Positions 1 to 64,000 of a stretch of DNA of 64,000 nucleotides are shown one piece after another. How positions within the stretch are numbered: the stretch's first letter is position 1; every line of letters starts with the position of its first letter. The notes beneath the pieces were generated by a model that saw nothing but the letters and a program-made list of their open reading frames with translations, had not been told where the DNA came from and ran no database searches. The position numbers and the translations under genes were made by a program. Origin of the DNA: a virus; the IMG/VR virus record IMGVR_UViG_3300044959_000303, positions 43,129-107,128 of that record; one strand, 5' to 3'.

Positions 1-66
1 ATGAATTTTTTTTTTCGATTATCGAAAAATTTTTTTTTTCAAAATAACGACAAAAAAGGTCGGAAA

Positions 67-837
67 ATGGATAGAAAAAATGACAATTTTCGAAACAGGA
101 GAAAAAGAAAAACAAGAAATTATCTCAACAACAACGATCTGCTCGAAGAAATTTCCAAAAGCAAATACACTTTTTGTTCCGTGAAAAATGACAATGAAAA
201 TTACAAAAAATATGATATTGTTCTCGAAAAAAAGGAACAACTTTGTTCGGCAATTTTTTTCGAGGTTCTGGAAGAAAAAGAAAAACTTCATGGAAAAAAA
301 TTTCAAAGAAGTTCCATAGTCATAAGAGTCATGACCGATGAACATATTCCCGAAGAATATTCTTTCGAACATCGAGGAAGAAAAAACAAAGAAAAAAAAT
401 TGAATTTCGATCCATTCAAACATTACATCCTGAATGATGAAGGAGAAATAGAAGAAGTATTGAGATCACATTGGAAGGGTACAATAGAAGATGGTGAATT
501 CAGTATGACACATGGATACATTACGGAAAATCTCGGAAAAATGATAATTCTTCTCGTGGACAGATTTGCACAGAAATCCTCTTTTCGAGGATATTCTTGG
601 GTAGAAGACATAAAAGGAAAAGCAACATTGCATCTTCTGGAATCTGTTTTGAAATTTCGGGAAGTGAAATCGGAAAATCCCTTTGCCTATTTTACTACAA
701 TAATAACAAATTCGTTTCGTCATACATTGAATCAGGAACATAGAAACATAGAAATCAAGACAAAGTTGTCACAACAACAGAACCCGGCATTTCAAACATA
801 CGAACAACAAGCCAAGCAAGATGTCAGTGGAAATTGA
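67..837 (+). CDS. gp55: T4 gp55-like late sigma factor
   Basis: C-terminal SFRGYSWVEDIKG...ENPFAYFTTIITNSF motif; lies directly upstream of gp47/gp46 as in T4-like phages. ATG at 67 preferred over the window-edge ATG. Confidence 0.85.
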   Translation: MDRKNDNFRNRRKRKTRNYLNNNDLLEEISKSKYTFCSVKNDNENYKKYDIVLEKKEQLCSAIFFEVLEEKEKLHGKKFQRSSIVIRVMTDEHIPEEYSFEHRGRKNKEKKLNFDPFKHYILNDEGEIEEVLRSHWKGTIEDGEFSMTHGYITENLGKMIILLVDRFAQKSSFRGYSWVEDIKGKATLHLLESVLKFREVKSENPFAYFTTIITNSFRHTLNQEHRNIEIKTKLSQQQNPAFQTYEQQAKQDVSGN

Positions 838-840
838 CAA

Positions 841-1887
841 ATGAAAAGATTATTCGATAGAGCAATTGTTTTCGGAGATATACACTTCGGTAACAAGAAC
901 AACAGTTCCATATTCAATGATGATTGTGAAGAATATATCGATTGGCTTCTGAAAGTAAAAGACAAGGTAAAAGCAGACACGTGCATATTTTTGGGAGATT
1001 GGTTTCACAACAGAAGATTCGTAAACGTACAGACGCTCGATTACAGTATGAGAAATCTCGAAAAATTGAATTCCGCTTTCGATCAGATTTTCATGTTGAT
1101 GGGAAATCACGATCTGTATTACAAGGAAAGAAGAGATATAAGTTCTCTCAATCTTGCAAAAAATTATTCGAATGTTGTATTGTTCGACGAAATTCGGGAA
1201 ATTGGTGATTGTCTTTTTGTTCCTTGGCTGATAAACGACGAATGGAAGAAAATCAAGGAATATTCCAAAAAATATGTTTTCGGACATTTCGAGATTCCAA
1301 GATTTCTGATGAATTCCTATGTCGAAATGCCAGATAAGAATGAACTCAACGAAGAGCATTTTTCCCGAAACGAATTCGTTTTTTCCGGACATTTTCACAA
1401 AAGGCAAAGAAGAGGAAACATTCTATACATCGGAAATTGTTTTCCGCACAATTATTCGGACATGGATGATACGGAAAGAGGATTGGTAATTCTGGAGTGG
1501 AACAAGGAACCAAAATTCGTAAATTGGAAAAACATGCCATTTTATACCAAAATCAATCTGTCGGAAGCATTGAACAAAGAATTCGCAAATATTGTCAGAA
1601 AAAAGACTTATATGAAACTTCTGATAGATATCGATCTGTCTTTCGAAGAATCTCTGTATCTGAAAGAAAAATTGATGGAAGATTACAAATGCAGAGAGGT
1701 TCAGTTGATACCAATGAATTTGAAAACAGATGAATTGAATTTCGAAAATTTCGAAGTGAAAACGGTAGATCAGGTTGTAATCGAAGGATTGAAAAATCTG
1801 AAAAACGTCGAATCGAATTACAATGTGGATTTTCTGATAGAAATATATGAAGAATTGAATATAGATGATGAAAGAAAAAATGTATAG
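841..1887 (+). CDS. gp47: Recombination endonuclease subunit (Mre11/SbcD-like metallophosphoesterase)
   Basis: GDIHFG, LGDWFH, GNHD, GHFE and SGHFH metallophosphoesterase motifs. Confidence 0.93.
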   Translation: MKRLFDRAIVFGDIHFGNKNNSSIFNDDCEEYIDWLLKVKDKVKADTCIFLGDWFHNRRFVNVQTLDYSMRNLEKLNSAFDQIFMLMGNHDLYYKERRDISSLNLAKNYSNVVLFDEIREIGDCLFVPWLINDEWKKIKEYSKKYVFGHFEIPRFLMNSYVEMPDKNELNEEHFSRNEFVFSGHFHKRQRRGNILYIGNCFPHNYSDMDDTERGLVILEWNKEPKFVNWKNMPFYTKINLSEALNKEFANIVRKKTYMKLLIDIDLSFEESLYLKEKLMEDYKCREVQLIPMNLKTDELNFENFEVKTVDQVVIEGLKNLKNVESNYNVDFLIEIYEELNIDDERKNV

Positions 1888-1932
1888 AATTCATCGAAGA
1901 ACATATTCGAAAAAAATATGGATGAATAAATT

Positions 1933-42087: not shown

Positions 42088-42163
<76 letters not shown>

Positions 42164-50950: not shown

Positions 50951-52786
50951 ATGTTTCGATATTCCGGAACTCTGAAATTTCGAAACAGAAAATACGAAAT
51001 TGTCAGTTTCGATTCGAACGAATCGAACAATATTCTGAATTTTCTCGAACTTCGAAAAAATCTGCAGATTCCGATTTTCGATGCGTTGAAAAATCTTCGA
51101 CCGGATCTGTTGAAAGTTTCTTTCGGGGAAAAAAAATATCTTCTGTCGATAATTCCCTCGTCGGGTGTCTGTTGTGATATTCATGTTTTTCTTTCTCTGG
51201 AAGAATACGAATCTGGTTTTTCGACGAATTTCACAAATGAAAACAGTATTCTGAAACAGATTCTGGATCTGAACGACTACGGCATCGTGATCATACGAAA
51301 TCAGAAAGTGATTTTCATCAACAGAACAATGGAAAAAATCGGTGGTTACAGTCTGGAAGAAGTTGTCGGAAAAAATTTCATCGATTTTTTCGATGAAAAG
51401 GAAAAAAGAAAAATTCTCGAAATACACCGCAAAAGAGCATCCATGGAGAACGAAGAACCGGAAAGAACATGGAAATCGGTTCTGGTGAAGAAAAATGGCG
51501 AAAAAATGTATGTCGAATGTAATGTTGCAAGAACGATTTTCGACAATGAAGATGCAGTGATCGCAATCGTGAAAGACATGACTCATTATCGAAAATTGTT
51601 GAATGTGCATCATGAAAGATATTATTACGACGACATGACGAAGACGATGAACCGGAACAGGCTCGTTGCCGATTTTCCGAAAATTCACAGAAAATATGTC
51701 GGCATATGTGATCTGATTCGTTTCAAGTTCGTCAACGACAAATTCGGTTACATGTACGGAGACAATCTCATAAGAAAATTCGCAAATTTTCTGAAAGAAC
51801 AGAAAATTGTCGAAAAAGTCTATCGATTGGGAGGAGACGAATTTTTTCTCGTTTTTTCGAAGAACGACATTTGCGAAATTCGAAAATTTTTCGAGTTTGC
51901 AAACGAAATTTCGAAAGAAATTCGTTTTCGTCTGGTGATTGCAGAAAAAAGAAAAAGTTTTCGAACCACGATGGAAATTCTGGATTTCTGTCTGACGGAA
52001 TCGAAAGAAAAATTCGTGAATTTCGTTTTTTTCGACAAGGAAAAAGAGACGATCTTCCGAAATCGTAAAAAACTGTTTTCTGCGAAAAACGAAGAAATTC
52101 TCGATGACATTCACATTTTCTTCCAGAAGATTTTCGACAGGAATTCCAATTCGAAAGGTTTCGAAATTCTTTCCGGTTTTCGAAGTTTCTTCCTGAACAA
52201 GGAAGATGTGTTCCGGGAAATATACAAAAACGGACTGTCGATCGAATTCATGAATCGAATTCTGGAAAAGATTTCGTTGTTCGTTTCCGGAAAAAATTTG
52301 CAGAACGAAAGAATTCACATCAATATCGACCATTCTCTTCTGGGAAATCAGTTCGAAGATTTTTTTCTCCTGTTGAAAAATTACGAAAGAATTCTGAATT
52401 CGAGTCGATTGATTCTGGAAATTACGGAAGAATACAATATTCTGACAGAAAAGGAATATGTTTCCAATCTTCTGAAGCTTCGTGAAAATTCCTTTCGTCT
52501 CGCTCTGGATGACATGGGCAGAAAATACAGTTCACTCGAATATGTTCTGAATATTCCTTTCGACATGATCAAATTCGATCGAAAATTTTCCTTCGAACTG
52601 GAAAAAGAAAATTCGAAAGTCGAAAATCTCTTTTCGAAACTGGTATCGGTTCTGAAAGACGATCATATTCTCGTACTCGAAGGAATCGAAAATGAAAAGT
52701 CGTATGAAAAAGCACTGAAATACGATATCGACGAATTGCAGGGTTTCTTTCTACACAGACCGGAAAATTGCGATTTTTCCCGATAG
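50951..52786 (+). CDS. PAS-GGDEF-EAL c-di-GMP metabolising protein
   Basis: PAS (FINRTMEKIGGYSLEEVVGKNF); GGDEF (FKFVNDKFGYMYGD, RLGGDEF); EAL (GFEIL, LEITE, LDDMG..YSSL, IKFDR, EGIE, LQGF). Confidence 0.9.
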   Translation: MFRYSGTLKFRNRKYEIVSFDSNESNNILNFLELRKNLQIPIFDALKNLRPDLLKVSFGEKKYLLSIIPSSGVCCDIHVFLSLEEYESGFSTNFTNENSILKQILDLNDYGIVIIRNQKVIFINRTMEKIGGYSLEEVVGKNFIDFFDEKEKRKILEIHRKRASMENEEPERTWKSVLVKKNGEKMYVECNVARTIFDNEDAVIAIVKDMTHYRKLLNVHHERYYYDDMTKTMNRNRLVADFPKIHRKYVGICDLIRFKFVNDKFGYMYGDNLIRKFANFLKEQKIVEKVYRLGGDEFFLVFSKNDICEIRKFFEFANEISKEIRFRLVIAEKRKSFRTTMEILDFCLTESKEKFVNFVFFDKEKETIFRNRKKLFSAKNEEILDDIHIFFQKIFDRNSNSKGFEILSGFRSFFLNKEDVFREIYKNGLSIEFMNRILEKISLFVSGKNLQNERIHINIDHSLLGNQFEDFFLLLKNYERILNSSRLILEITEEYNILTEKEYVSNLLKLRENSFRLALDDMGRKYSSLEYVLNIPFDMIKFDRKFSFELEKENSKVENLFSKLVSVLKDDHILVLEGIENEKSYEKALKYDIDELQGFFLHRPENCDFSR

Positions 52787-52802
52787 TTTCATGTTCGGAA
52801 TT

Positions 52803-53144
52803 TCATTCGGAAAGCAATTCAGGCTCCACGGTATAGACACCACATTCCCACAAACCGTCGCTTATCTTGTAAGTTTCGAAATTCGAAGTCGATATGATCT
52901 GAAAGGATACTCCGCTGATGTCGAGAGTAAACGAAGAATGAAAATTCACAAGAGTCGAAATTTCGGTATCGACCGTAACTGTCAGGGAACTTTCCGAAAT
53001 TTCCAGATCAATCGTTCTTCCATTTTCCAGAACGATACTGGCCGAAGTTCGAACTTTTCTCGTCATGAAATTTCTTCGGGAGGAATTCGGAATCGAAACG
53101 ACGGTTCCCGAATTTGTAAGAATTTCCACAGGAATTCTCGACAT
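52803..53144 (-). CDS. Hypothetical late protein
   Basis: ATAAATA on the minus strand at 53179-53185; beta-rich 113 aa ORF. Confidence 0.5.
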   Translation of the reverse strand: MSRIPVEILTNSGTVVSIPNSSRRNFMTRKVRTSASIVLENGRTIDLEISESSLTVTVDTEISTLVNFHSSFTLDISGVSFQIISTSNFETYKISDGLWECGVYTVEPELLSE

Positions 53145-53248
53145 TTTTTTTCTTTCGAAAAAAATTTTTTTTCAAGATTATTTATTTTTTTCGAAGAAAA
53201 AATTTCGGAAAATTTTTCGCTTTCGATTGCATAAATAAAATAAAAAAC

Positions 53249-53476
53249 ATGAGAAAAAATTCAATTACCGGTCCGAATGTTCTCTTTTCGTTTTCCCTGA
53301 ATGAAAAAACGCAAAATTTCGATATCGTCGAAAATCCGGATCTGTCCGCCCTGAAAGGAATTCGAAGAAAAAAGACTTTCGACAATTTCTGGATCTTTTC
53401 CGGAAAATTCACGAGGAACAGGTATACCCGACAGAAGGAAAAATATCTGGAGCAGGTTTTTCCTCTTGTCGATTGA
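53249..53476 (+). CDS. Hypothetical protein
   Basis: ATAAATA at 53231 immediately upstream. Confidence 0.45.
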   Translation: MRKNSITGPNVLFSFSLNEKTQNFDIVENPDLSALKGIRRKKTFDNFWIFSGKFTRNRYTRQKEKYLEQVFPLVD

Positions 53477-53485
53477 TTTGTTATT

Positions 53486-53779
53486 TTGTCGAAAAAAAAA
53501 TATTCTGTTATTATCGATATGCAACAGGGAGAAAAAAACGAAATGGTAAAATTTACGAAAGTCAGAATTCTGGACAGAAATCGATTGCTGGGAATGCTCG
53601 AAGAAGAACTTGGTCACGATGACGAACTGGTGAGAATTCTGAAAAAAGAATTTTTCGATTCGAAGGAAAGTTCGAAGAACGATTTTTCGTCGAATTTTCT
53701 GGAGAATCTCTGGAATTCTTACGATTTCGAAAAAAGAAAAAAAATCGAAAACATCATATTGACATGGTTGTTCGAATGA
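53486..53779 (+). CDS. Hypothetical protein (start uncertain)
   Basis: Co-oriented ORF; possible start at 53542 after GGGAG. Confidence 0.45.
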   Translation: MSKKKYSVIIDMQQGEKNEMVKFTKVRILDRNRLLGMLEEELGHDDELVRILKKEFFDSKESSKNDFSSNFLENLWNSYDFEKRKKIENIILTWLFE

Positions 53780-53805
53780 AATTTCTCATCGGGGAAAAAA
53801 CGATC

Positions 53806-55218
53806 ATGAAGACAGGAATTTCTTCCCGAATTTTCGTATATTTCTTTTTGTTTCCGTTTCTTCTGTTTTCCTTTTCCGTTCATGGCATGGACTGGAATTC
53901 GAAATTTTCCGAAAAAAATTTCGTGAAACTGGAAGAAAATTCGACTCTGGCTTTCGAAACGAGAAAAAGCGACCTGCATCCGTATTACAGAAACAAGAAA
54001 GATATTTTCGTCAGAAAAATTCGTGAAAACGACAACAAGGTGTTTTCGAGGGAAATATATGTCAGCAGCGAAGATCAAAGTGAAGAATACTGTTCGATCT
54101 ACATTCGGTACGAAAATGTCGTCATTGCTCTTCGAGATTTGTTGTACATATACAAAATCGCCGACAGAACGGTATGGTTCAATCGAATGAATTCAGGTTC
54201 CAACTGGAACAATTTCGAAGAAAATATCGAAGAAAATACCAGAGAAAATGTCGAAATGACCGAGAATTCGAACGAAGTGTTGATAACAACGAAAGTCGAT
54301 CTGACTCCTACGATAGAATTCTATGTATCCAGAAAACTTTTTCCCGAAGAAAAACTGAAATACAGGGGAGCTTACATTGTTCTGGAAATGAAGAAGAAAG
54401 TCGGCGAAAATGATCTGGAATACAGAAAAATTCTTCTCGAAGATTATCAATATTATTACGAAGTCAATGAAAGATTTGCCGTAATTCGAAGAAATTTCAT
54501 TTCTTTTCAGGAAATGGTCACACAGCTCGAAAAAAATGCGAAAATTGAAATTCAGGTGACTTTGTTCCATGAAAAATCGAACGAAGGTCGAAATTCGAAC
54601 GAAAATTCGATTCGAAACAAAAATGGCGTATCGGACAGAAATTCCGTAAACGAAAAAATTTCATTGAAATTCTCCCCGGAAGAGTCGAATGAAATTCTGA
54701 AATGCATTGGTAAAAAAACGAAAAAGGAAGCCATCGAAAATTTTGCCAGAAAGGAAGAAATTCGAAAACAGACCGTTGTTCGAACGACGAATTCGTATTT
54801 CGATATCGAAAAATTGAACAATGAAACGAATCGAAGCAATTATCTTCATCTGAAGGATGTTGTCCGAAATCTCGATATTCGATCTGTTCTCTTCGAAAAA
54901 GAACCCGTTTTTGTCGACGAAAACAAAAAATATGCAATTTTTTCGAATCCTTCGGCAAATTCTCATGTTCTGGTTTTCGTGACGAACGACGATGAAGGAA
55001 ATTCACTTTTCGATTATTCCTGTTCCCTGATTACAGAACAGAAAATTCATGAAAAAAACGACAATCGGCTTCTGGTATGTGAAAAAGAAGATCGAAGAAT
55101 TTTTCTGTACAGAAAAATCAAAAATCGAATGACATATCACTTCGTGTTTTTCGCGAATTCTTCGAATATCAGCGAAGAAGAATCCAGAAAACTCTACGAT
55201 TTTCTTCTCTACAACTGA
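53806..55218 (+). CDS. Hypothetical secreted or membrane-anchored protein
   Basis: Hydrophobic N-terminal signal-like segment RIFVYFFLFPFLLFSFSVHG. Confidence 0.55.
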   Translation: MKTGISSRIFVYFFLFPFLLFSFSVHGMDWNSKFSEKNFVKLEENSTLAFETRKSDLHPYYRNKKDIFVRKIRENDNKVFSREIYVSSEDQSEEYCSIYIRYENVVIALRDLLYIYKIADRTVWFNRMNSGSNWNNFEENIEENTRENVEMTENSNEVLITTKVDLTPTIEFYVSRKLFPEEKLKYRGAYIVLEMKKKVGENDLEYRKILLEDYQYYYEVNERFAVIRRNFISFQEMVTQLEKNAKIEIQVTLFHEKSNEGRNSNENSIRNKNGVSDRNSVNEKISLKFSPEESNEILKCIGKKTKKEAIENFARKEEIRKQTVVRTTNSYFDIEKLNNETNRSNYLHLKDVVRNLDIRSVLFEKEPVFVDENKKYAIFSNPSANSHVLVFVTNDDEGNSLFDYSCSLITEQKIHEKNDNRLLVCEKEDRRIFLYRKIKNRMTYHFVFFANSSNISEEESRKLYDFLLYN

Positions 55219-55245
55219 AAAAAAAAATTTTTTTCGCACGAATGT

Positions 55246-56163
55246 TCAGTTTTTCATCGAGAAATATTCTTTTTTCAGAATTTTCCACAATCTGTTCCGA
55301 TTTTTTCGAAACCAGATTTCTTCGATATAGAAAAAGACATCATTCGTGATCATGATTTCATTGCCGGATTTCACTGCCTCTTCGAAATTTTCGTTCGTGA
55401 AATTTCGTAACAGAGAATTTTTTCTGTTCAGAACGATGATTTTTTTCAATTCTTCTTCCGAATCGAAATCGAATTTCCGATGATTGTCGGCAATTTCGTT
55501 GATGATTGTCATGTAATCCGTTTGAAAACGATCTTCCTGAAAATGTCTTTTCACGATTGTTTCCAACAGGTTCAGAGCTTCTTTCGTATGGCCTTTCTTC
55601 ATCAGAAGTTCGATATTTTCTTTTTCTTCGTGAAAAATTTCCGATGGAAGATGAAACATGATCGAATCTGTCAGTGCATGAACAATTTCTTTTTTCAATT
55701 TTCGAATTTCGGCAAAATTCAACAGAAAAATTCTGTGACTGTAAAGACTGGTGAAAAAATCGTGAGATACCGGATTCCATGTGAAGAAAAATTTTTTCGA
55801 AGGAAAAACGACTGCCAGAATTCTGTCGTTTTTTCGATAGTTCAATGCCGTTGTTCTTTCTCCTGTCACAAATATGCTGTTCGATCTCAATGCTCGAAAA
55901 CCGGAATTTTTCAGATAGTCGTCGATGAGTTTCTGTACGAACGGTGATGAACTCAATGGTTTACGATTCTTTTCTATACTCGAAATTCCATAATTTGTCG
56001 TCCATTCACTTCTGTTCGGAGTCAAGGCTCTGTACAATGAATTTTCGAACAGAAATTTCACAATTTCCGGATTCGTGTTTCTTGCCATTTCCCGAACAAA
56101 TTTTTCGAATTTTTCGTCGAAGAAAAAATTCTTGTCCGTGTTCGTGACTTCGATGATTTTCAT
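55246..56163 (-). CDS. Late paralog family member 4 (putative ADP-ribosyltransferase-like fold)
   Basis: MKIIE; LYRA, RSNSIFVT, SGNEIMIT; closest to member 1; ATAAATA at 56191-56197. Confidence 0.6.
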   Translation of the reverse strand: MKIIEVTNTDKNFFFDEKFEKFVREMARNTNPEIVKFLFENSLYRALTPNRSEWTTNYGISSIEKNRKPLSSSPFVQKLIDDYLKNSGFRALRSNSIFVTGERTTALNYRKNDRILAVVFPSKKFFFTWNPVSHDFFTSLYSHRIFLLNFAEIRKLKKEIVHALTDSIMFHLPSEIFHEEKENIELLMKKGHTKEALNLLETIVKRHFQEDRFQTDYMTIINEIADNHRKFDFDSEEELKKIIVLNRKNSLLRNFTNENFEEAVKSGNEIMITNDVFFYIEEIWFRKNRNRLWKILKKEYFSMKN

Positions 56164-57736
56164 TTCTGTTCCGAAAAAAATTTCCGATTTTATTTATTCG
56201 AAAAATGTCGATTTCTGTCTGGAATGTTTTTCGATGTTTTTCTGGAGAAAAAATGCATGATAGAAGCGATTTTCATACGAATTTGCAGAATTCGTACAAT
56301 CGACGAATTCGCGACATATTCGAAATGTACGAAAAAATTCTTCTCCATGTTTTTCATTGTCATGCTCGTCGTTTCACTTCTTTCTGTCCGAAAGAAGATT
56401 TGCCGGAATTTCGTTTTTTCGACGAATTGTTCGAAGAAATTGGAAAATCATCTTCTTCTACCGGAAAAAAAACGATAAATTGTTTTTTTCCGAATATCAT
56501 GCGAAAAAAGAAATTCGACCTTTTTTCGAAAACAGGAATCTGTACATTGTATCTTCGAAGTTGTCGTATCTGTTTCGAAATTCGAAAAATTCGAAAAAAT
56601 TCGATGAAATTGTCGTGAAAATCGAAGAATTTCAGAACTCGCGAAACACATATACGAAGAAAATTCGAAAAAGAACAGAAAAGTCATTCTGTTTTTTCAC
56701 GAAAGTGGAAGATTTGGAATATTCGGAAGCTTTTTCACTGTATTCGAAAAATACGATCGGACTTCTGCACGACATGAACATATTGCAGACAATTTCGACG
56801 GGAATTCGTATTCGAATTTACGGGAATGTCGAAAAATGCTCTCGTAAATTTCCTCTGCAAAAAATTGTCGTTGATTTTTGGCACAAGTTCGGTGAAATCG
56901 ACTTCCTGTTTTCACGACAGTGCCAAAAAGATCATTATTCGTCATCTTCTGTCGAAAATGATCGATATACCGATTTTCGATGAAACGAAATCGATCGGGC
57001 AGAAAAAAAGAATGAAAAATTCGTGTTTTTCGATTTCGGCTCTTTCGAACGAATTTCGATTCCGAAATTTGTTCGAATTCAGAAAACGAAAGAAAAAACG
57101 GACAAAAGAAATACGAGAAGAAAAATCGAAGGAAGATATTTCAGAACGAAGAAATATTTGAGAAAAACAATTGTCAATCTGTGAGAAGTCTCCGGTGGAA
57201 GCAGATGCATCAATCTCATATACCATGGCAAACGCATTTTTCTTTCTCTCCTTTTCTTCGAAATGAATTTATTCTTTTTTTCTTTTCTTTTTTCGAAAAT
57301 CGAAAAAAATTTCGAATTTTTTCATGTCGACTTCCGAATTCCGATTTTCATTTCTTCTGCAGAATTTTTTTCTCGAAAAAATGATCGTTTTCGGAAATTT
57401 TTTCGATTCGGTTCACCGTTTTCGCCCTCGAACGAAAATATCGTAATCGATTTCACGAAAAATTTCGAGAAAAATTTCACGATGAAAGTCACGAAAATTT
57501 CTTTTCGCCATTTCGTGACATGTTTCGATTCACTGTTTTCTCTTCGGAAATTTTTTCTTTGTGAAGTCGACGATGAATTTCGAATTGTACGAAAAAAAAA
57601 ATTTCGTTCGATGTACGAACATTTTTTTTTCTGTGAAATCGAATTTTTTTTTTCGCATGATTTTCGGTTCGACATCATTTTCATCGACTTCGAACGAAAA
57701 TGTCGATCTTTTCTTCGAAAATTCGAATTTTTTCTG

Positions 57737-59590
57737 TCACGAAAAATTTTTCACGAATACGAGAGTTCCACAATCGTAGATTTTCGACAGATTTTTCTTT
57801 TGCGAATTTTCTGTCGAACGTCGATTTTCATGTACATACCAACGGCGAGGTTCGGTAATTTTCACGAGAACAAAGCCGTTTTTTTTCAGAGTCGAACCGG
57901 TGAACCATCTTCTGTCGACATTTGCCGTTATCGAAAGCGGACGATTTTCTTTCTCGAAATGTTTCAACATTCGGGAAAACAATCCTGCATGACATTTTCC
58001 GTTCGTGCAGAATCCTGTCATTTTCCATGAATTTTCGAAATTTCTTCTTTTCGAAAAAGACATGCATGCCACAAGTTCGTCATTGAAAAATGCACCATAA
58101 TGAAAAGTCGAACGAATTGCTTTCTGCAGAGAATGTTTTTCATGAAAATTTCGAGCCATCGAAAAGGAAATTTTTCGAATCGAAGTGATTTTTCTCGCAG
58201 GAACACCTTTTTCCGCTCTGTTCAGAACATACTTCAGTACATTTCGAACCGCATTTCGGTGAAATTTCCATTCGTCTTCGAAAATGTGAATCAGGCGATA
58301 ATTTCTTCTTTCGAGTTGTTCGGTTTTGTTCACATGATAATTTTTCGGAAGAAATTTCGAACTGTGAAAATACAATCCGTTGCATTCGATGGCAATTCTG
58401 GAATTCTTCACCAGAATATCGATTTCGAAATTGCCGAAAATTCTGCAATTTCTCGAAATTTCGATCTTCAGGGAAGAAACGAATTCCGCAACTTCGTTTT
58501 CCCAACCGGAACTCGTGAATTCGGTTCTTCTGCATTCCGGACATTTGTATCGTCTTCTGGTCACGTAAAGAAGAGAACTCGTGAAAAAAACATGATGTTT
58601 TCTGCAATGAAACAGAACCGGACTTTTTGTTCCGATTTTTTCGTCCGATTTCGGAAAGACGATTTCGATATCGAATTTTTTCAGAACTTCATTGTATTTT
58701 TCGACCGTATTTTTTCTTTTTTCGTTCTGGCATTCTGGACATTTCGTGTTTCTGAAAAGAAAATCGTACAACCATGGACGAAAAATTCCGTGTTTCGGAC
58801 ATTTCAGAATCAGTCGATGTCCTTCCACCGACAACAATTCGTAATTTTCTTCGCAAATTTTTTTTCTTGCCAATTGCAGTTTTTTCGAAAAGTTTTCCGG
58901 TGTGATTCGATATTTTTCGAAATTTTCCGAATTCGAAGAAAATTGCCCGAAAAGATTTTCGATTTCCTTTTTCGAATCTTCTTTCTCGCAGTTTCTGCAG
59001 AAAAATTTAAGATTTTTTCTTTTTCGAATTGCAATGCGAATTTTTTCGTTTCTGCATTTTCTGCACGAAAGTTCCAGAAAATTTCTTTCTTCCCGAATAT
59101 CGAAATTCGGATTGAGCATTTCTATCGTGTGAAGAAAAATTTTTCTTCGAAACGGTTCGTTGTTTTTGCAGGAATTGCATTTCACGTAGAAAAATTTTCT
59201 TTCGAATTCGGGAATTTCGAAGATTTTCGAGCAGGAATCACAACGAAAAACAAGAAAATTCTTTTCGTGTTTTTCGAAGCGAAGATTCGAATGTATGGAA
59301 AGCATGCCCCGAATGAATTCTTCTTCACTGTTTGCAAGAATTTCGAATCTGTTGATCGCGAAATTTCGAATTTTCGAATTTTTTCGATTTTTCCAACATT
59401 CGGGACAGGAAGTTCGACCTTTTTTCGAACGGAATTTCAGCTGTTCGTATGTCGAATTCCATGTGAAATCGTGCAAATTGCAATGCAGAACAATTTTGTT
59501 CGGATTTTCGATGCTTTTCAATTCAGTGGAAGAATAGTTCCTTTTTATTCTTTCGACACGTTTTTCTACGATGTTTCGAATATTTGTCAT
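57737..59590 (-). CDS. Zn-ribbon repeats + Vsr-like endonuclease + GNAT/Mom-like domain
   Basis: CxxH...CPEC repeats; EIDILVKNSRIAIECNGLYFHS; LIHIFEDEW; ARKI, HSLQ, LVACMSF, VDRRWFTG, IYDCG. Confidence 0.75.
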   Translation of the reverse strand: MTNIRNIVEKRVERIKRNYSSTELKSIENPNKIVLHCNLHDFTWNSTYEQLKFRSKKGRTSCPECWKNRKNSKIRNFAINRFEILANSEEEFIRGMLSIHSNLRFEKHEKNFLVFRCDSCSKIFEIPEFERKFFYVKCNSCKNNEPFRRKIFLHTIEMLNPNFDIREERNFLELSCRKCRNEKIRIAIRKRKNLKFFCRNCEKEDSKKEIENLFGQFSSNSENFEKYRITPENFSKKLQLARKKICEENYELLSVEGHRLILKCPKHGIFRPWLYDFLFRNTKCPECQNEKRKNTVEKYNEVLKKFDIEIVFPKSDEKIGTKSPVLFHCRKHHVFFTSSLLYVTRRRYKCPECRRTEFTSSGWENEVAEFVSSLKIEISRNCRIFGNFEIDILVKNSRIAIECNGLYFHSSKFLPKNYHVNKTEQLERRNYRLIHIFEDEWKFHRNAVRNVLKYVLNRAEKGVPARKITSIRKISFSMARNFHEKHSLQKAIRSTFHYGAFFNDELVACMSFSKRRNFENSWKMTGFCTNGKCHAGLFSRMLKHFEKENRPLSITANVDRRWFTGSTLKKNGFVLVKITEPRRWYVHENRRSTENSQKKNLSKIYDCGTLVFVKNFS

Positions 59591-59709
59591 TGTCGTGAAA
59601 AAGTAAAGAAGATTTTTTTCGAAATTTTTTTTTTCGACGATATTATTTACTTTTCGAAAATTCGAAGTTCGAAAAAAAAAAAAAAAGAAGAATTCGTGAC
59701 AAAAAAAAA

Positions 59710-59786
59710 TGGCGACCCCGAGTGGGCTCGAACCACCAACCCCCGGCTTAGAAGGCCGGTGCTCTATCCGGTTGAGCTACGGGGTC
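59710..59786 (-). tRNA. tRNA-Arg(TCT)
   Basis: GACCCCGTAGCTCAACCGGATAGAGCACCGGCCT-TCT-AAGCCGGGGGTTGGTGGTTCGAGCCCACTCGGGGTCGCCA; full cloverleaf with CCA. Confidence 0.96.
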
Positions 59787-59805
59787 TTGCCTGTCATGCT
59801 GTCGA

Positions 59806-59834
59806 ATTATGCAAGCATTCTTCGAATTTGTCAA
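59806..59834 (-). promoter_or_regulatory. Sigma70-type promoter for tRNA-Arg
   Basis: TTGACA-17 nt-CATAAT. Confidence 0.75.
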
Positions 59835-59880
59835 CTCCTTTTTTGCGGAAATTTTTCTTCACATGTACGAAAAAAAATTG

Positions 59881-60363
59881 TCAATTTTCCTGTTCTTCTT
59901 CATCTTCCTTTTTTTCGACAACATATTCGTACATGTACAGCACACATGCGAGACCGTAGACAATTGCAAGAATGTGTCCGAAAATTCCACCTTCCGCACC
60001 ATACAGTACGACACAGAAAATCAGGGTGGACCAGAACGAAACTCTGGTATTCCACGTGAAAAAGAGAATCACGAGAAAGAAAATCAGAGAAGAATGATAT
60101 TTCGTCATGTATGCAAGAACGACAAAAATGATCGATCCGTATTTCGGAAAATATGGAATCAGAAAAAGCGAGAAAAATGCAAAAATTTCCGGATGATTGT
60201 AAAGTGTGTCGTGAATTTTTTCGTGATTGTAAATGTAAATCAGAATTCCCAGATAAGTCAGATATTTGCTCAGAAGATACTTGATGTAGTTTCGAAAGAA
60301 CAGATCTCTTGCTTCTTTGGTCAGATTCGTCAAATCGAAGGTTTCTTCTTCCCTGTTCTGCAT
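59881..60363 (-). CDS. Membrane protein
   Basis: Several hydrophobic segments; AAGGA upstream. Confidence 0.6.
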   Translation of the reverse strand: MQNREEETFDLTNLTKEARDLFFRNYIKYLLSKYLTYLGILIYIYNHEKIHDTLYNHPEIFAFFSLFLIPYFPKYGSIIFVVLAYMTKYHSSLIFFLVILFFTWNTRVSFWSTLIFCVVLYGAEGGIFGHILAIVYGLACVLYMYEYVVEKKEDEEEQEN

Positions 60364-60403
60364 TTTTTCGATTCCTTCACGATGTTCTTTCTGTCTTCGA
60401 CTT

Positions 60404-60856
60404 TCAGAATTCCAGAATCTCGTAGAACTTTCCGTTCATCTCGTCTTCGTCCAGACTGTAGATCACTCTGTCGATATCGAATTCCATGATCGCCGACTGG
60501 CAACCGGGACAAGGCTTCGAAAGTCCCCATATATATGAAGAATTCGGAGCGAATTTCTTGACACGGCACACATAGAGAGTCTTCTTCGCATCGACGAATT
60601 CATTGAGTCCCATGTTCGAAATTGCCTGCTTTATTGCACTGATTTCCGCATGAATATAGATATGATTCTTGTTTTTCGAAAATCTTTGCTGGAAGGGAGA
60701 AGTTTTCGACGAATTCAGTCCGATCGAAATCAGTCGATTCTTGACGTAAATGGCGGCGGCCAGCTTGGCATAGCTGTTCTTGCCAAGGCAGACACCTCTG
60801 TTCGCCTTGGCAATTTCCGACAAAAACATCAATCTTTGATGGTGCTTGTCGTTCAT
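60404..60856 (-). CDS. Zinc-dependent nucleotide/nucleic acid deaminase fold protein
   Basis: HAEISAI and SKPCPGC motifs. Confidence 0.85.
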   Translation of the reverse strand: MNDKHHQRLMFLSEIAKANRGVCLGKNSYAKLAAAIYVKNRLISIGLNSSKTSPFQQRFSKNKNHIYIHAEISAIKQAISNMGLNEFVDAKKTLYVCRVKKFAPNSSYIWGLSKPCPGCQSAIMEFDIDRVIYSLDEDEMNGKFYEILEF

Positions 60857-60972
60857 GCCCTTCTTGTAATCGATTTTTTCGCACTGTCAAGAAATTTTTT
60901 TTCACATTCGTTCGAAGAAAAATTTTTTTCGTTTTTTACGAAATTTTCATGTTCGAAAATTTTTTTCGAAAT

Positions 60973-61023
60973 TTCGAAAAAATTCGAAAAAGAACAGAAT
61001 TTCTGTTCTTTTCCGAAGAAAAG
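60973..61023. repeat. About 50-bp palindromic element, copy 1 (copy 2 at 62039..62088)
   Basis: TTCGAAAAAATTCGAAAA(A)GAACAGAATTTCTGTTCTTTT.CGAAGAAAAG. Confidence 0.75.
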
Positions 61024-61073
61024 TTTTTTCGAAAAGACAGATTGTTTTTCGCGTTTGTTTCTGGCAGAAACAA

Positions 61074-61110
61074 AATTCGGGGAAGGTGTTGTCGACACCT
61101 TCCCCGAATT
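61074..61110 (-). terminator. Intrinsic terminator after 61125..61718
   Basis: AATTCGGGGAAGGTGT/ACACCTTCCCCGAATT stem with U-rich tail on the minus strand. Confidence 0.75.
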
Positions 61111-61124
61111 CGGAATTCAGTATT

Positions 61125-61718
61125 TCAACTTTTTCTGTATCGAAGAGTTCCGACAATGGCCTGATGAATGATCTCTTCTGCCTTGATTTTCATCTTTTTT
61201 CTCTCGTATTCGTCCAATCCTTCCTTACGAATCTTCTCCAGAGCAATTTGGACAATTTCCTCCATCTTTCTGTCTTTGTAAGAAGGCATGAAACCGAGAC
61301 TCATAGCTCTTTTGGCAGCCAGGTCTTCGATCAGATTTTCTGCAAGCAGATTCGCAAGTTCTTCCACTTTCTCTTCGTAATTGAAGCAAGGTGGAAATCT
61401 GCGAACGTTTGTGGCATAAATTTTGAAAAGCCTGCCTTCGTAAATTTTTTTCCATCTTTTCATATTGGCATCTGCCAATACGATTTCACCGACATGAAAG
61501 TTACCACAATTTCGATCCGGAACAACAATGTCGGAAACAATTCTGCTTCCGACTGTTTTCTGATTGACTGGTCCGGAGTAGAAAGCCAGTTTGTTTCTGT
61601 TATTCTTGCCCTCTGTAATTCGGGCAATCTCCCATTCTTCGGAAACAGGAACAAATTGCTTGATATTCTCGATCCATGCCGGAAGGCTGACAGTCTTGCC
61701 TTCCACCGTGATCTGCAT
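61125..61718 (-). CDS. Hypothetical protein
   Basis: RBS GAGGG; natural composition; followed by terminator. Confidence 0.7.
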   Translation of the reverse strand: MQITVEGKTVSLPAWIENIKQFVPVSEEWEIARITEGKNNRNKLAFYSGPVNQKTVGSRIVSDIVVPDRNCGNFHVGEIVLADANMKRWKKIYEGRLFKIYATNVRRFPPCFNYEEKVEELANLLAENLIEDLAAKRAMSLGFMPSYKDRKMEEIVQIALEKIRKEGLDEYERKKMKIKAEEIIHQAIVGTLRYRKS

Positions 61719-62038
61719 GTTTTTTCCCTCTCGTTGTGTCCGACTTTTTCATACACCGTATGAAAAAAAAATTCAACAGGAAAAAATTTCGGAAACGAAT
61801 TTTTCGTCGATGATCGACAGACAATCGACGAAGAATTGAAAAAACTGTTTCTCGAAAAAAGACAGTCTTTCTGTTTCCAGTCGATTTCGAATCGATTCGA
61901 AACGGCATTGTCGAGCCGTTTTTCGATTTTCATTTTCCTGCTTTCTACTTCTTCGAACACAGGCAATTTTTTCGGAAAGGTCGAAAGAAAAATTTTTTTT
62001 TTTCGGAAAAAATTTTCTGTTTTCGAAAAAATTCCACG

Positions 62039-62088
62039 TTCGAAAAAATTCGAAAAGAACAGAATTTCTGTTCTTTTTCGAAGAAAAG
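62039..62088. repeat. About 50-bp palindromic element, copy 2; probable terminator of the propeller gene
   Basis: Near-identical to 60973..61023. Confidence 0.75.
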
Positions 62089-62099
62089 AGAAGTGAAAT

Positions 62100-63815
62100 T
62101 CATTTTTCGAGAAGATGGGAACTCAGAATTCTGCCATTCAGAATGAACAGTCTTTTTCCGTTGTTCTGAAGAAACATCGAGATTCCTTCGACCGGTTGCG
62201 TATGTCTCAGGGATGCAGTCGAAATTTTCCATGGAGACGAAAGTTCGTAACGGGAGTACATGTTTCTGTTCAGTACATGCATGGATTTTCCGGTTTTGTC
62301 GAAATACATTGCCTGTAATGGACCGGGATTGCAAATTGGAAAACTTTCCTTGCAAATTGCGGTCGAAGACGAAAGATTCCATGAAGAAGTCAGTTCGAAG
62401 GAAAATATTCTTTCGTTGTCCCTTCCGAGCAGATACATCATCGTTCCCCGGGAATTGAAAAATACTCCGCCCGGATTTCTGTCGTAAGAACTGGTGGAAA
62501 AATTCGAAGAATCAGGAATTGCGGTCGTAATGTCCCAAGGAATGCTCAGAGTATAGGAACATATACGATTTTCGTCTTTTCCGACAACGAACAGTTTTCT
62601 TCCATCGGAACGAAAGAAAATTCCCTGCAAATTGGTATTCATCGAACTTGCATCGAGAAATTCGAAATCATGACTTGCCGTGGCAATATTCCACGAAATG
62701 CGCAGACCGAACGAGAAGATCGTATTGCCGGAATTTTCGACAATGAACAGTTTTTTTCCATTCGAAGAGAAAAACATGCCTGTCGGATCGATTTTTTCGA
62801 CATTTCTACGAGAAACATCGAAGAATACATTGTCGTTTTTCGCGGTTGAAATCTCCCATGGAATTTCGAGTGTATAACGATACACCCGATTGTTGTCTCC
62901 ACTGACGAACATTTTCGTTCCGGTGGAATTGAAAAATATTCCTTTCGGAATATTCGGATTGTCGATTTCTCTCACATGTTCTTTCACGGGAGAAGAACCG
63001 AATTCGTATGCATTTTTCAACGAAAACGAGTGCACTTTTCTGTTCTTCCAGTTCAATACGTACATTTTCTTTCCATTCGGAGAAAAGAACAACGAATGTG
63101 GTTTCAGTTTCGTATTTCCATGAAAGAAAGTATCGTATTTTGCCGTGGAAATGTCCCACGGCACACTCAGCTCGTACGAAAATATTTTGTCGTAAGATCC
63201 GATCAGAAACATTTTCGTTCCTTCCGGATCGAAGAACAGACCTTTCAGAAAAATTCCCGTATCGTTGACATGCAGGAATTTTTCATCATGAATCGCGGAG
63301 GAAACATTCCACGAATTTTTCAATGTACAGGAATATACTCTGTTTTCGTATCGATCGAGTACGAACAGCTTCGTTCCATTCGAAGAAAAAAACATTTCGA
63401 CAATGAATTTTTTTCCGAAACGACTGACATCGAATTTTTCGTTATTGTAATTTGCTGTTGAAAGATTCCATGGACAGGTCAGATCATAGGAATATATCGT
63501 GTTGTCGTCTCCGAGTACGAACATTCGGGTTCCGTTCGAAGAGAAAAACAGTGTCTTCGGCCCTCTGACCTGATTTCCTACATGAAAACAGACATTCTCG
63601 TAACTTGCCGTAGTCAGATTCCATGGAGTGCTCATGGTGTACGAATAGATCCGTTTTTGCGACAAACCGAGCACGAACATTCTGTTTCCGTTCGAAGAAA
63701 AGAATATTGCTTCCGGATACGAATCCTGATCGGAAATCGAAATTTGCTCTTCTTCGACAATGGTTTCAACGTCGAAGAAACTGGTATTCTTTGTGTTTTC
63801 GGAAACTTTACGCAT
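62100..63815 (-). CDS. Multi-blade beta-propeller repeat protein
   Basis: About 11-12 repeats of FFSSNGTKMFV...YSY.L..PW[DN]ISTA; same repeat family as 38067..38468. Confidence 0.8.
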   Translation of the reverse strand: MRKVSENTKNTSFFDVETIVEEEQISISDQDSYPEAIFFSSNGNRMFVLGLSQKRIYSYTMSTPWNLTTASYENVCFHVGNQVRGPKTLFFSSNGTRMFVLGDDNTIYSYDLTCPWNLSTANYNNEKFDVSRFGKKFIVEMFFSSNGTKLFVLDRYENRVYSCTLKNSWNVSSAIHDEKFLHVNDTGIFLKGLFFDPEGTKMFLIGSYDKIFSYELSVPWDISTAKYDTFFHGNTKLKPHSLFFSPNGKKMYVLNWKNRKVHSFSLKNAYEFGSSPVKEHVREIDNPNIPKGIFFNSTGTKMFVSGDNNRVYRYTLEIPWEISTAKNDNVFFDVSRRNVEKIDPTGMFFSSNGKKLFIVENSGNTIFSFGLRISWNIATASHDFEFLDASSMNTNLQGIFFRSDGRKLFVVGKDENRICSYTLSIPWDITTAIPDSSNFSTSSYDRNPGGVFFNSRGTMMYLLGRDNERIFSFELTSSWNLSSSTAICKESFPICNPGPLQAMYFDKTGKSMHVLNRNMYSRYELSSPWKISTASLRHTQPVEGISMFLQNNGKRLFILNGRILSSHLLEK

Positions 63816-64000
63816 AAGTTCGACCTTTTTACTTTCGAATTCGATATATCAGGTTCGCGAAGTGAATGCAAATTTTTTTTTCTGTTTTCCGAAAAACGGT
63901 TTTCGGAAAACAGATTCGAAAAAACGTATCGTGTCGGGCATGAAATCATTTCAGGAAACGAACGGGAAATGAAAAAGAAACACGAAACGAATTCGAAAAT

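What the first reader, a model, noticed from the sequence alone, without database searches (positions are those of the whole stretch)
1..64000. Genome-wide YTAR avoidance with extreme TCGA/TTCGAA enrichment
Seen by eye: although the DNA is AT-rich with long A and T runs, TTAA, CTAA, TTAG and CTAG are very rare, and T-run/A-run junctions are usually TTCGAA while AATT junctions are common. Leu codons TTA/CTA are scarce and TGA is a frequent stop. As a result, spurious antisense ORFs are very long (58100..59959, 50909..52333, 19399..20637). The bias is strongest in intergenic and accessory DNA and relaxed near head-gene starts (13730-13820, 15680-15745, 17000-17050). Inference: either a context-specific mutator converts TA to TG/CA/CG (A-to-G on both strands turns TTTAAA into TTCGAA), or there is long-term selection against a YTAR-targeting host nuclease, or TCGA is a modification or protein-binding mark.
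Basis: partly seen in the sequence, partly recalled or inferred. Interest (0 to 1): 0.8.

Follow-up and report, generated by a model that had tools for sequence, protein, structure and literature searches.

The report
Hot-spring jumbo phage purged of YTAR
A giant virus of hot-spring bacteria has removed almost every copy of the four-letter DNA words TTAA, CTAA, TTAG and CTAG by silent rewriting and put CG where TA would sit, most likely to escape a DNA-cutting enzyme that has not yet been identified.

Summary
In the window YTAR occurs 38 times against 740±20 in dinucleotide-preserving shuffles. TCGA occurs 1165 times against 765±19. TTTAAA is 0 and TTCGAA is 337.

It is not a base-calling artefact. 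The bias is carried by synonymous codon-context choices in all three frames, and relatives have the same amino acids at YCGR-bearing codons.

The window belongs to a T4-core jumbo myovirus from hot-spring and mat metagenomes. Eighty relatives lack the signature. Four other contigs from two other metagenomes share it, including a 111-kb replication module.

Decomposition splits the finding in two. YTAR is an irreducible duplex-level unit, 8-11 times rarer than its half-sites predict, uniformly across all four members. TCGA is fully explained by independent, roughly 3-fold TCG and CGA preferences, so it is not a palindromic mark. CTCGAG is also absent (0 against about 29 expected).

My best reading (about 0.45) is selection against a YTAR-recognising restriction-type nuclease, laid over a thermophile-like composition that is poor in TA and rich in purine and pyrimidine runs. 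A context-specific repair or mutation bias and host mimicry remain open. The host is unknown.

The scan's first readers noted the same signature on overlapping windows of this genome.

The parts
1..64000 (.). Genome-wide composition signature: YTAR about 0.02-0.03 of expectation, YCGR 2.3-5.4x, RCGY 0.1-0.3, TA 0.37, CG 1.57, RR+YY dinucleotides 0.575.
   Evidence: The same signature holds over the whole 107-kb record and in G001-G004.
13734..13817 (+). Cluster of four residual YTAR sites in the upstream region and first codons of the gene at 13778-14860 (head module).
   Evidence: Part of the general relaxation at -60..+30 of starts.
15689..15743 (+). Two residual TTAG sites in the first 25 codons of the gene at 15668-17014 (phrog_10922, precedes the major head gene).
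16997..17047 (+). Residual CTAG and TTAA just upstream of the major head protein start. The TTAA lies between the GGAG ribosome-binding site and the ATG.
   Evidence: Major head protein gene 17048-18268 (phrog_138).
17048..18268 (+). Major head protein gene. Used, with portal, protease and neighbouring genes, for the homologue test that excludes a TA->CG miscall.
50000..64000 (.). Accessory-gene region where the signature is most extreme (TA 0.16-0.33, YCGR 3.6-5.8x, YTAR 0-2 per 2 kb).
58100..59959 (+). Long ORF with no family match. Spurious antisense frame kept open because TTA, CTA and TCA codons are rare in the real gene opposite.
   Evidence: no Pfam hit here, hits on the opposite strand. 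Codon counts.
57737..59590 (-). Real gene opposite the spurious ORF. Carries Zn-ribbon and DUF723 regions and a PD-(D/E)xK 'REase_MTES_1575' nuclease-fold domain. Probably a homing-type endonuclease; specificity unknown.
   Evidence: E = 7e-9, just under the curated cutoff. No PDB or NCBIfam match.
50909..52333 (-). Spurious antisense ORF opposite the gene at 50951-52786 (+).
Evidence: seven PHROG families hit the + strand protein.
19399..20637 (+). Spurious antisense ORF opposite the DUF7487 endonuclease-like gene at 19705-21069 (-).
18352..21069 (-). Two tandem DUF7487 genes with weak Vsr/MTES_1575-like nuclease echoes, next to the head gene. PA5oct has a homing endonuclease at the same position.

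Best explanation
The window is part of a T4-core jumbo myovirus from hot-spring microbial mats. Its whole genome carries two superimposed composition layers.

Layer 1 is a purge of the degenerate palindrome YTAR (TTAA, CTAA, TTAG, CTAG). All four members are removed to the same degree, about 10-fold beyond what the separate YTA and TAR preferences predict. The purge is achieved by silent choices:
- Leu is never TTA or CTA before a purine.
- NNY codons end in C before AA or AG.
- Arg switches from AGA to CGN after a T.
- The stop is TGA after a pyrimidine.

The most likely cause is long-term purifying selection against a protein that reads YTAR on double-stranded DNA. That would be a restriction-type endonuclease of its host(s), or possibly the phage's own host-DNA-degrading nuclease. 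It acts alongside a separate XhoI-type (CTCGAG) avoidance. Sites survive mainly where promoters or translation starts need them.

Layer 2 is a broader lineage-specific composition: long purine and pyrimidine runs, few TA steps, and about 3-fold TCG and CGA preferences on each strand. This layer fills the pyrimidine-to-purine junctions with CG instead of TA. It produces the TCGA and TTCGAA excess as a by-product, not as a recognised palindrome.

Shown: the signature is real, it works through synonymous choices, YTAR is irreducible, TCGA is reducible, and the signature is restricted to this lineage. Inferred: the nuclease as the agent, and thermoadaptation or replication bias as the source of layer 2.
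For: - Reality and strength: YTAR is 38 against 740 +/- 20 and TCGA is 1165 against 765 +/- 19 in dinucleotide-preserving shuffles.
- Synonymous implementation in all frames: Arg after T is AGA 7% of the time against 72-86% after other bases; Ser before A is TCG 53%; xTY before AA or AG ends in C 97%, and before GA 88%. Stop choice also depends on context.
- Not an artefact: at Ser-TCG|R, D/E-after-xYC and Y|CGR-Arg positions, up to 81 homologous loci per gene carry the same residues as at control codons. Independent assemblies from other metagenomes show the same signature.
- YTAR is a unit: fitting half-site effects without the Y..R cells predicts 0.23-0.54, while 0.024-0.049 is observed, a ratio of 0.09-0.12 for all four members.
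- TCGA is reducible: 4.62 observed against 4.67 predicted. Hexamer flanks are all about 1.
- Classic restriction avoidance is present in the same genome: CTCGAG has 0 sites against about 29 expected in 218 kb.
- Relaxation at functional sites: YTAR is 4.2-4.4 per kb upstream of starts against 0.9 per kb in gene bodies. Coding DNA (0.03) is more purged than intergenic DNA (0.09).
- A co-occurring strain about 0.7% diverged keeps zero YTAR over 6 kb.
- Lineage restriction: 80 relatives with 68-84% identical head protein lack the signature, and four large relatives (three of them complete genomes) have ordinary TTTAAA:AAATTT ratios.
- Layer 2: the RR+YY fraction is 0.575-0.579 against a relatives' median of 0.497. 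The source is a hot spring or mat. RR+YY-RY-YR correlates with growth temperature (PMC3308326).
Against: - No enzyme with YTAR specificity is known to me, and none was found. The host is unknown.
- About 250 YTAR sites remain in 218 kb, so protection would be only partial. A 4-kb island holding 29 sites is tolerated.
- Selection against YTAR alone does not explain why TCGA is preferred over TTGA and TCAA at synonymous sites. Nor does it explain the near one-for-one YTAR-to-YCGR budget, so a second force has to be assumed.
- The pressure has shifted amino-acid pairs: after Phe, (E+D)/(K+N) is 1.82 against 1.18 in relatives. That is also what a strong mutation bias would produce.
Confidence: 0.45

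Rival explanations
1. A context-specific mutation or repair bias intrinsic to the phage's own replication and repair machinery. Examples are a very-short-patch-like T:G to C:G correction or an A-to-G mutator acting inside pyrimidine-pyrimidine-purine-purine contexts on both strands. It would drive TA to TG/CA to CG, and purifying selection on proteins would then filter the outcome.
For: - The hierarchy TA << TG/CA < CG is seen wherever the choice is synonymous.
- The YTAR deficit (-2616) nearly equals the YCGR surplus (+2116).
- The signature is strongest in weakly constrained accessory genes and weakest in one island that may be a recent acquisition.
- Amino-acid pair usage is shifted.
- The signature is restricted to one lineage of an autonomously replicating phage.
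- VSP repair is an accepted explanation for CTAG loss in E. coli (PMC4687349).
- Several Vsr/PD-(D/E)xK-fold nuclease genes are present.
Against: - Intergenic DNA is less purged of YTAR than coding DNA (0.09 against 0.03). This is the opposite of a simple mutational expectation.
- YTAR shows a cooperative 10-fold extra depletion while YCGR does not. One process acting on each strand would be multiplicative for both.
- There is no C5-methyltransferase, no Vsr above threshold, and no HhH-GPD or UDG gene in about 63% of the genome.
- Transitions between co-occurring strains are balanced, 60 AT>GC against 54 GC>AT. That is expected at equilibrium, so it is only weakly informative.
Confidence: 0.25
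2. The signature is simply that of the host lineage. The phage has ameliorated towards a thermophilic host whose own genome is YTAR-poor and YCG/CGR-rich, for whatever reason applies in that host.
For: - Phage oligonucleotide signatures often track their hosts.
- Host-like cargo genes (gmd, KdsA, KdsD, PrkA, GGDEF-EAL) carry the full signature.
- The source is a specialised hot-spring habitat.
- I could not examine thermophile phyla.
Against: - Jumbo phages with their own replication genes tend to keep signatures distinct from their hosts (PMC3308326).
- No AT-rich, YTAR-free cellular contig appeared among 80 metagenome loci selected with a signature-diagnostic pattern.
- None of 401 Bacteroidota genomes approaches the phage's TTTTCGAAAA density, at most 31 per Mb against 250-290 per Mb.
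- No unrelated phage with the same composite signature was found.
Confidence: 0.15
3. YCGR (TCGA, CCGG) is a modification mark. A phage N4-cytosine methyltransferase methylates these cytosines. m4C resists heat-driven deamination, so methylated CG sites accumulate while other cytosines decay to T.
For: - The companion fragment G001 encodes a beta-class PF01555 methyltransferase (E = 1e-42) with an SPPY motif IV, the N4-cytosine type (PMC10406627).
- The habitat is hot.
- Two complete relatives and PA5oct, all without the signature, have no orthologue.
Against: - TCGA has no excess beyond its half-sites.
- This model does not explain the YTAR purge.
- CTCGAG is still perfectly avoided, which would be unnecessary if TCGA were protectively methylated (inference).
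- The closest relative, G411, also has an SPPY enzyme yet lacks the signature.
- The enzyme's specificity is unknown.
Confidence: 0.07
4. Avoidance of an insertion-sequence target. YTAR is the IS5 target duplication, and TA or TTAA are targets of other transposons.
For: The motif is identical to the IS5 target 5'-YTAR-3' (PMC5009759). CTAG avoidance has been linked to IS targets (PMC4687349).
Against: The per-site selection coefficient from rare insertions is far too small to hold a 30-50-fold depletion against mutation (inference). E. coli, which has active IS5, still has 7-14 YTAR per kb, against 0.6-0.9 per kb here.
Confidence: 0.03
5. A sequencing or assembly artefact: systematic TA-to-CG miscalls at a modified YTAR motif.
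Against: - xxT-CGA Arg codons cannot derive from stop codons, yet they make up 48% of Arg codons after T.
- Relatives show Ser, Glu/Asp and Arg, not Leu, Lys/Asn or chain ends, at the affected codons.
- Gene ends and gene packing are normal.
- Independent assemblies from other metagenomes share the signature.
Confidence: 0.01

Closest known systems
Restriction-site (short palindrome) avoidance in phage and bacterial genomes (reviewed in PMC4687349)
   Same: A short, self-complementary word set is depleted far beyond lower-order composition. It is removed by silent changes. It co-occurs with a textbook 6-bp case in the same genome, CTCGAG, with 0 sites against about 29 expected.
   Different: The avoided word is a degenerate 4-mer (YTAR) for which I know no enzyme. 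The depletion is 30-50-fold over at least 218 kb of AT-rich DNA, where the word should be among the commonest. It is paired with a gain of YCGR of nearly equal size. No cognate system or host has been identified.
CTAG depletion in E. coli attributed to very-short-patch (Vsr/Dcm) repair (Bhagwat & McClelland 1992, cited in PMC4687349)
   Same: A TA-centred palindrome is lost and C/G-containing derivatives are gained. The direction of change is T to C and A to G.
   Different: All four YTAR words are affected equally, not just CTAG. The effect is an order of magnitude stronger. No Dcm-type methyltransferase or Vsr above threshold was found in the ~63% of the genome seen. The gained motif shows no unit-level excess.
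Thermophile dinucleotide signature (RR+YY excess correlating with growth temperature; PMC3308326)
   Same: The RR+YY fraction is 0.575-0.579 against 0.50 in relatives. There are long A and T runs, and the source is a hot spring.
   Different: YTAR is itself a YYRR pattern, so this trend predicts more of it, not less. CG is enriched here, whereas the review reports CG under-representation in several thermophilic archaea.
IS5 target site 5'-YTAR-3' (PMC5009759)
   Same: The motif is identical.
   Different: That is an insertion preference, not a known cause of genome-wide depletion. E. coli keeps 7-14 YTAR per kb despite active IS5.

Membership tests
Restriction-site avoidance | The avoided word is a (degenerate) palindrome read on duplex DNA. 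| tested here: met
   YTAR is closed under reverse complement. All four members are depleted to 0.024-0.049, uniformly 0.09-0.12 of the half-site prediction.
Restriction-site avoidance | Depletion persists after correction for lower-order composition. | tested here: met
   38 against 740 +/- 20 in dinucleotide shuffles. Observed/expected is 0.17-0.44 even under a trinucleotide Markov model.
Restriction-site avoidance | A cognate endonuclease of that specificity exists in the host or the phage. | not testable with these tools
   The host is unknown. The nuclease-fold ORFs in the window have unknown specificity. I know of no YTAR-specific enzyme (own knowledge, not a database check).
Restriction-site avoidance | Other independent recognition sites are avoided in the same genome. 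| tested here: met
   CTCGAG has 0 sites against about 29 expected in 218 kb, while CTCGAA and TTCGAG are abundant.
VSP-type repair skew | The genome encodes a C5-cytosine methyltransferase and a Vsr endonuclease. | tested here: not met
   PF00145 is absent. PF03852 gives only 13-14-bit sub-threshold echoes. PF00730 and PF03167 are absent in G000-G004. About 37% of the genome is unseen.
VSP-type repair skew | The T-containing derivative is depleted and the C-containing target is enriched. | tested here: met
   YTAR -2616 and YCGR +2116. Synonymous-site hierarchy.
VSP-type repair skew | The methylation target motif is enriched as a unit. | tested here: not met
   TCGA is 4.62 observed against 4.67 predicted from half-sites. 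TCGG and CCGA are below prediction.
Thermophile RR/YY composition | An excess of purine-purine and pyrimidine-pyrimidine dinucleotides. | tested here: met
   0.575-0.579 against a relatives' median of 0.497 and maximum of 0.522.
Base-calling artefact at a modified motif | The encoded proteins carry the substitutions predicted by the miscall (Leu->Ser, Lys/Asn->Glu/Asp, stop->Arg). | tested here: not met
Host-signature amelioration | The host genome shows the same oligonucleotide ratios. | tested here: inconclusive
Methylation mark at TCGA/YCGR | A methyltransferase of that specificity, and modified bases in the DNA. | not testable with these tools
   An SPPY (N4C-type) PF01555 enzyme is present in G001. 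Its specificity is unknown and no modification data are available.

The most novel reading that the evidence does not exclude
The purge reveals an undescribed frequent-cutting nuclease with the degenerate 4-bp specificity YTAR. It could be a new restriction system in a thermophilic mat bacterium. More unusually, it could be a phage-encoded nuclease with no partner methyltransferase that shreds host DNA, while the phage protects itself simply by not containing the site. The window and its companion fragment hold several nuclease-fold genes of unknown specificity.
Probability: 0.2. Interest if true: 0.8.

Novelty: new variant of a known kind. Interest (0 to 1): 0.62.

Why it matters
If the cause is a nuclease, the genome points to a new frequent-cutting enzyme specificity (YTAR) from a thermophilic community. 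It also shows how far silent recoding can go. A word expected about 25 times per kb has been driven to under 1 per kb across hundreds of kilobases, and amino-acid pair usage has shifted measurably along the way.

If the cause is a repair or mutation bias, this would be the strongest known case of a context-specific process reshaping a viral genome.

Either way there are practical consequences:
- Antisense ORFs become very long, which is a trap for gene callers.
- The signature is distinctive enough to bin the scattered fragments of this phage across metagenomes. That is how the 111-kb replication module was found here.

Tried and rejected
- Artefact hypothesis: rejected.
- 'TTCGAA is special': rejected. 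Observed/expected is 0.98 given its tetramers.
- 'TCGA palindrome recognised as a unit': rejected by the half-site model.
- AvaI-type CYCGRG avoidance: rejected. Only CTCGAG is missing.
- Thermal stability or stacking as the cause of the YTAR loss: rejected. RTAY (ATAT 0.96) is tolerated, and RY junctions prefer AT over GC.
- Host inference from KdsA: relatives are only 45-55% identical and scattered across phyla.
- Polarising substitutions in the relaxed island: its 1186-aa protein has no relatives in the viral collection.
- First viral pattern scan (TTCGAA three times): saturated by chance and repeat hits, none with the signature.
- 401 Bacteroidota genomes: none with the signature.
- Relatives of a viral record cannot be drawn by the genome search.
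- Strain SNPs (40 listed of about 145): none creates a YTAR, but fewer than one was expected, so there is no power.
- G005, a 28-kb contig with mild YTAR depletion, is a different phenomenon: ACGT, GCGC, CATG, CGCG and GGCC are all about 0.
- SPPY methyltransferase as a sufficient cause: weakened, because G411 has an SPPY enzyme without the signature.
- The nuclease-fold protein at 57737-59590 has no PDB sequence relative or NCBIfam name.

Full report
**What the window is.**
The window is bases 43129-107128 of a 107,128-bp IMG/VR viral record that CheckV rates about 28% complete. It is syntenic with the head, tail and recombination module of Pseudomonas phage PA5oct. The shared order runs late sigma factor, SbcD, SbcC, baseplate genes, portal, prohead protease, scaffold-like gene, major head protein, homing-type endonuclease, sheath stabiliser and sheath. 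Public runs that hold it are labelled hot-springs and microbial-mat metagenomes. The three runs I laid belong to one sample series.

**Checking the observation.**
- In the window TTAA, CTAA, TTAG and CTAG occur 15, 8, 9 and 6 times. Base composition predicts about 1590 in total.
- Against 100 dinucleotide-preserving shuffles, YTAR is 38 against 740 +/- 20 and TCGA is 1165 against 765 +/- 19.
- TTTAAA is absent (63 expected), TTCGAA occurs 337 times (15.7x) and TTTCGAAA 83 times (39x). AATT and AAATTT are enriched 1.7x and 3.2x.
- All four YCGR words are enriched 2.3-5.4x, and RCGY words are depleted to 0.1-0.3.
- The signature holds along the whole record. One island at record 10-14 kb, outside the window, is relaxed (YTAR 0.17-0.29). 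The signature is most extreme in the accessory genes at window 50-64 kb.
- Across the record the YTAR deficit (-2616) nearly equals the YCGR surplus (+2116), while YCAR and YTGR sit at expectation.

**It is not an artefact.**
A systematic TA-to-CG miscall would turn Leu into Ser, Lys/Asn into Glu/Asp, and stops into Arg. The data show the opposite.
- The bias is carried by synonymous, context-dependent codon choice in all three frames. After a codon ending in T, Arg is AGA only 7% of the time, against 72-86% after other bases, and becomes CGN. Those T-CGA codons cannot have been stops.
- Ser before A is TCG 53% of the time. NNY codons with a pyrimidine at position 2 end in C 92-97% of the time before AA or AG (97% for xTY), and xTY codons end in C 88% of the time before GA.
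- After a pyrimidine the stop codon is TGA 26 times and TAA or TAG 4 times.
- In tblastn alignments to up to 81 homologous loci per gene, positions encoded by YCGR-bearing codons show the same residues in relatives as control codons do: Ser 27% vs 36%, Glu+Asp 54% vs 53%, Arg 41% vs 38%. There is no excess of Leu or Lys/Asn.
- Gene packing is normal.

TTA, CTA and TCA, which are the antisense stops, are rare codons. Antisense frames therefore stay open for long stretches.

**Who shares the signature.**
- Eighty relatives found through the major head protein (68-84% identity) do not share it. Four large relatives (three of them complete genomes) have ordinary TTTAAA:AAATTT ratios of 0.4-0.8, against 0.013 here.
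- A signature-diagnostic DNA pattern found four other viral contigs from two other metagenomes with the same composite signature. They share YTAR 0.02-0.09, YCGR 2.4-3.4, RCGY about 0.25-0.36, GCGC at or below 0.25, and CTCGAG 0.
- These contigs have no sequence overlap with my record.
- The largest, G001 (111 kb), carries large terminase, a DnaB-like helicase, UvsW, an intein-containing family-B polymerase, RNA ligase, ThyX, TilS, PrkA-DUF444-SpoVR and a KdsD-type isomerase. That is the complement of my record's structural module and of its KdsA and cytidylyltransferase genes.
- The tetranucleotide profiles of the two fragments correlate at r = 0.975. I infer that they are two parts of one phage type. 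Together they cover roughly 63% of a 320-380 kb genome.

**Decomposing the signal.**
A strand-symmetric half-site model was fitted to the pooled 218 kb. It separates two layers.
- For CG-centred tetramers the model fits well. A pyrimidine 5' of CG (or a purine 3' of it) raises frequency about 3-fold on each side. TCGA is 4.62 observed against 4.67 predicted, and CCGG is 1.09 of its prediction.
- TCGA is therefore not enriched as a palindromic unit. Hexamer flanks are all close to 1, and TTCGAA is 0.98 of its tetramer-based expectation.
- For TA-centred tetramers the four YTAR cells are 0.09-0.12 of what the half-sites predict, uniformly across all four. YTAR is an irreducible, duplex-level unit.
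- At the hexamer level only CTCGAG stands out, with 0 sites where about 29 are expected. This is a textbook XhoI-type avoidance and not the CYCGRG type.

**Where YTAR survives.**
- YTAR density is 4.2-4.4 per kb in the 60 nt upstream of starts and 3.3 per kb in the first 30 nt. It is about 0.9 per kb in gene bodies.
- Coding DNA (0.03) is more thoroughly purged than intergenic DNA (0.09).
- For scale, E. coli has 7 YTAR per kb in coding DNA and 14 per kb in non-coding DNA (PMC5009759).

**Strength of the pressure.**
It reaches protein sequence. After Phe, the ratio of Glu+Asp to Lys+Asn is 1.82, against 1.18 in relatives. After residues whose codons end in a purine the ratio flips. Phe is 7.0% of residues against 3.9% in relatives. 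The RR+YY dinucleotide fraction is 0.575-0.579, against a median of 0.497 and a maximum of 0.522 in 45 relatives. This matches the reported correlation of RR+YY-RY-YR with growth temperature (PMC3308326).

**Searching for an agent.**
- In the ~63% of the genome available there is no C5-methyltransferase, Dam-type enzyme, HhH-GPD glycosylase or UDG. Vsr gives only sub-threshold echoes, inside the DUF7487 endonuclease genes.
- There is one beta-class PF01555 methyltransferase with an SPPY motif IV. SPPY is the N4-cytosine type (PMC10406627).
- Two complete relatives and PA5oct lack an orthologue of it. The closest relative, however, has its own SPPY enzyme without the signature.
- The window holds several nuclease-fold genes of unknown specificity: PDDEXK_15, two HNH, two DUF7487 and an MTES_1575 protein. 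Their positions suggest homing endonucleases.

**Host.**
The host remains unknown.
- KdsA relatives are 45-55% identical and scattered across phyla.
- None of 401 Bacteroidota genomes approaches the phage's TTTTCGAAAA density, at most 31 per Mb against 250-290 per Mb.
- Thermophile phyla could not be reached.

**Population data.**
A co-occurring strain is about 0.7% diverged. Its transitions relative to the reference are balanced (60 AT>GC against 54 GC>AT). It keeps zero YTAR in the 6 kb covered by the listed variants. Several differences are paired changes that move a CG rather than lose it. Statistical power is too low to separate selection from mutation.

**Interpretation.**
- The uniform, cooperative depletion of all four YTAR words is best explained by selection against a protein that reads YTAR on duplex DNA, most simply a restriction-type nuclease. 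Supporting this are the silent implementation, the relaxation only where regulatory function competes, and the co-occurring CTCGAG avoidance.
- The CG gain is a separate, multiplicative trinucleotide preference inside a purine-run and pyrimidine-run architecture that looks thermophile-like. With TA excluded, it fills the pyrimidine-to-purine junctions.
- A VSP-like repair process or a mutator (compare CTAG in E. coli; PMC4687349) remains a serious rival, because synonymous sites show the full TA < TG/CA < CG hierarchy.
- Host mimicry is untested.
- The 'TCGA mark' reading is not supported by the decomposition.

Noticed in passing
whole window; G000 and G001: CTCGAG (XhoI-type site) is completely absent, with 0 sites against about 29 expected in 218 kb, although CTCGAA and TTCGAG are abundant. 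CCCGGG and CTCGGG are not avoided, so the target is not CYCGRG.
   Followed up: yes
G000:C1:9500-14400 (upstream of the window; locus L084): A compositional island with YTAR 0.17-0.29 and YCGR 1.4-2.0 that holds about 29 of the record's 93 YTAR sites. Its two ORFs (382 and 1186 aa) have no Pfam hit and no relatives in the viral collection. It may be a recent acquisition that is still ameliorating.
   Followed up: partly
window 18352-21069 (-) and 57737-59590 (-); G001 65059-66180 (+): A family of DUF7487 / MTES_1575 (Vsr-like PD-(D/E)xK fold) proteins, two of them in tandem right after the major head gene. PA5oct has a homing endonuclease at that position.
   Followed up: partly
L274:2030-3949 (-) in G001: The family-B DNA polymerase gene appears to be interrupted by an intein (Pfam Intein_splicing hit within the polymerase ORF).
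   Followed up: no
G000:C1:15308-16141 and 41971-42597; G001 101546-102646: A phage-borne Kdo-type sugar pathway split across the two fragments: KdsA-like DAHP_synth_1, a cytidylyltransferase, and a KdsD/KpsF-like SIS-CBS isomerase. Together with gmd at window 28275-29114, this suggests a Gram-negative host.
   Followed up: partly
L273:11679-12587 (-) in G001: A phage-encoded TilS (tRNA-Ile lysidine synthetase) in a genome where ATA makes up a third of Ile codons.
   Followed up: no
L271:12553-15821 and L274:5761-7266 in G001: A PrkA kinase, DUF444 (YeaH) and SpoVR trio carried by the phage.
   Followed up: no
window 53639-53640, 51781/51784, 52403-52405: Differences between co-occurring strains include paired substitutions that relocate a CG (TTCTGAAA vs TTTCGAAA; TTCGCAAA vs TTTGCGAA) or swap one YCGR for another, which keeps YCGR counts constant.
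   Followed up: partly
window 62100-63815 (-): A beta-propeller (WD40/PD40-like) repeat gene. Contigs from two runs of the same sample series show internal skip joints of 114-1139 bp here, suggesting repeat-number variation or assembly collapse.
   Followed up: no
window 12797-13663 (+): A class-3 lipase domain protein encoded inside the head-gene module.
   Followed up: no
G005 (IMGVR_UViG_3300000558_000794; L400-L401): An unrelated 28-kb viral contig (GC 49%) with ACGT, GCGC, CATG and CGCG entirely absent, GGCC about 0.01 and AGCT 0.09. This is an unusually complete multi-palindrome purge.
   Followed up: partly
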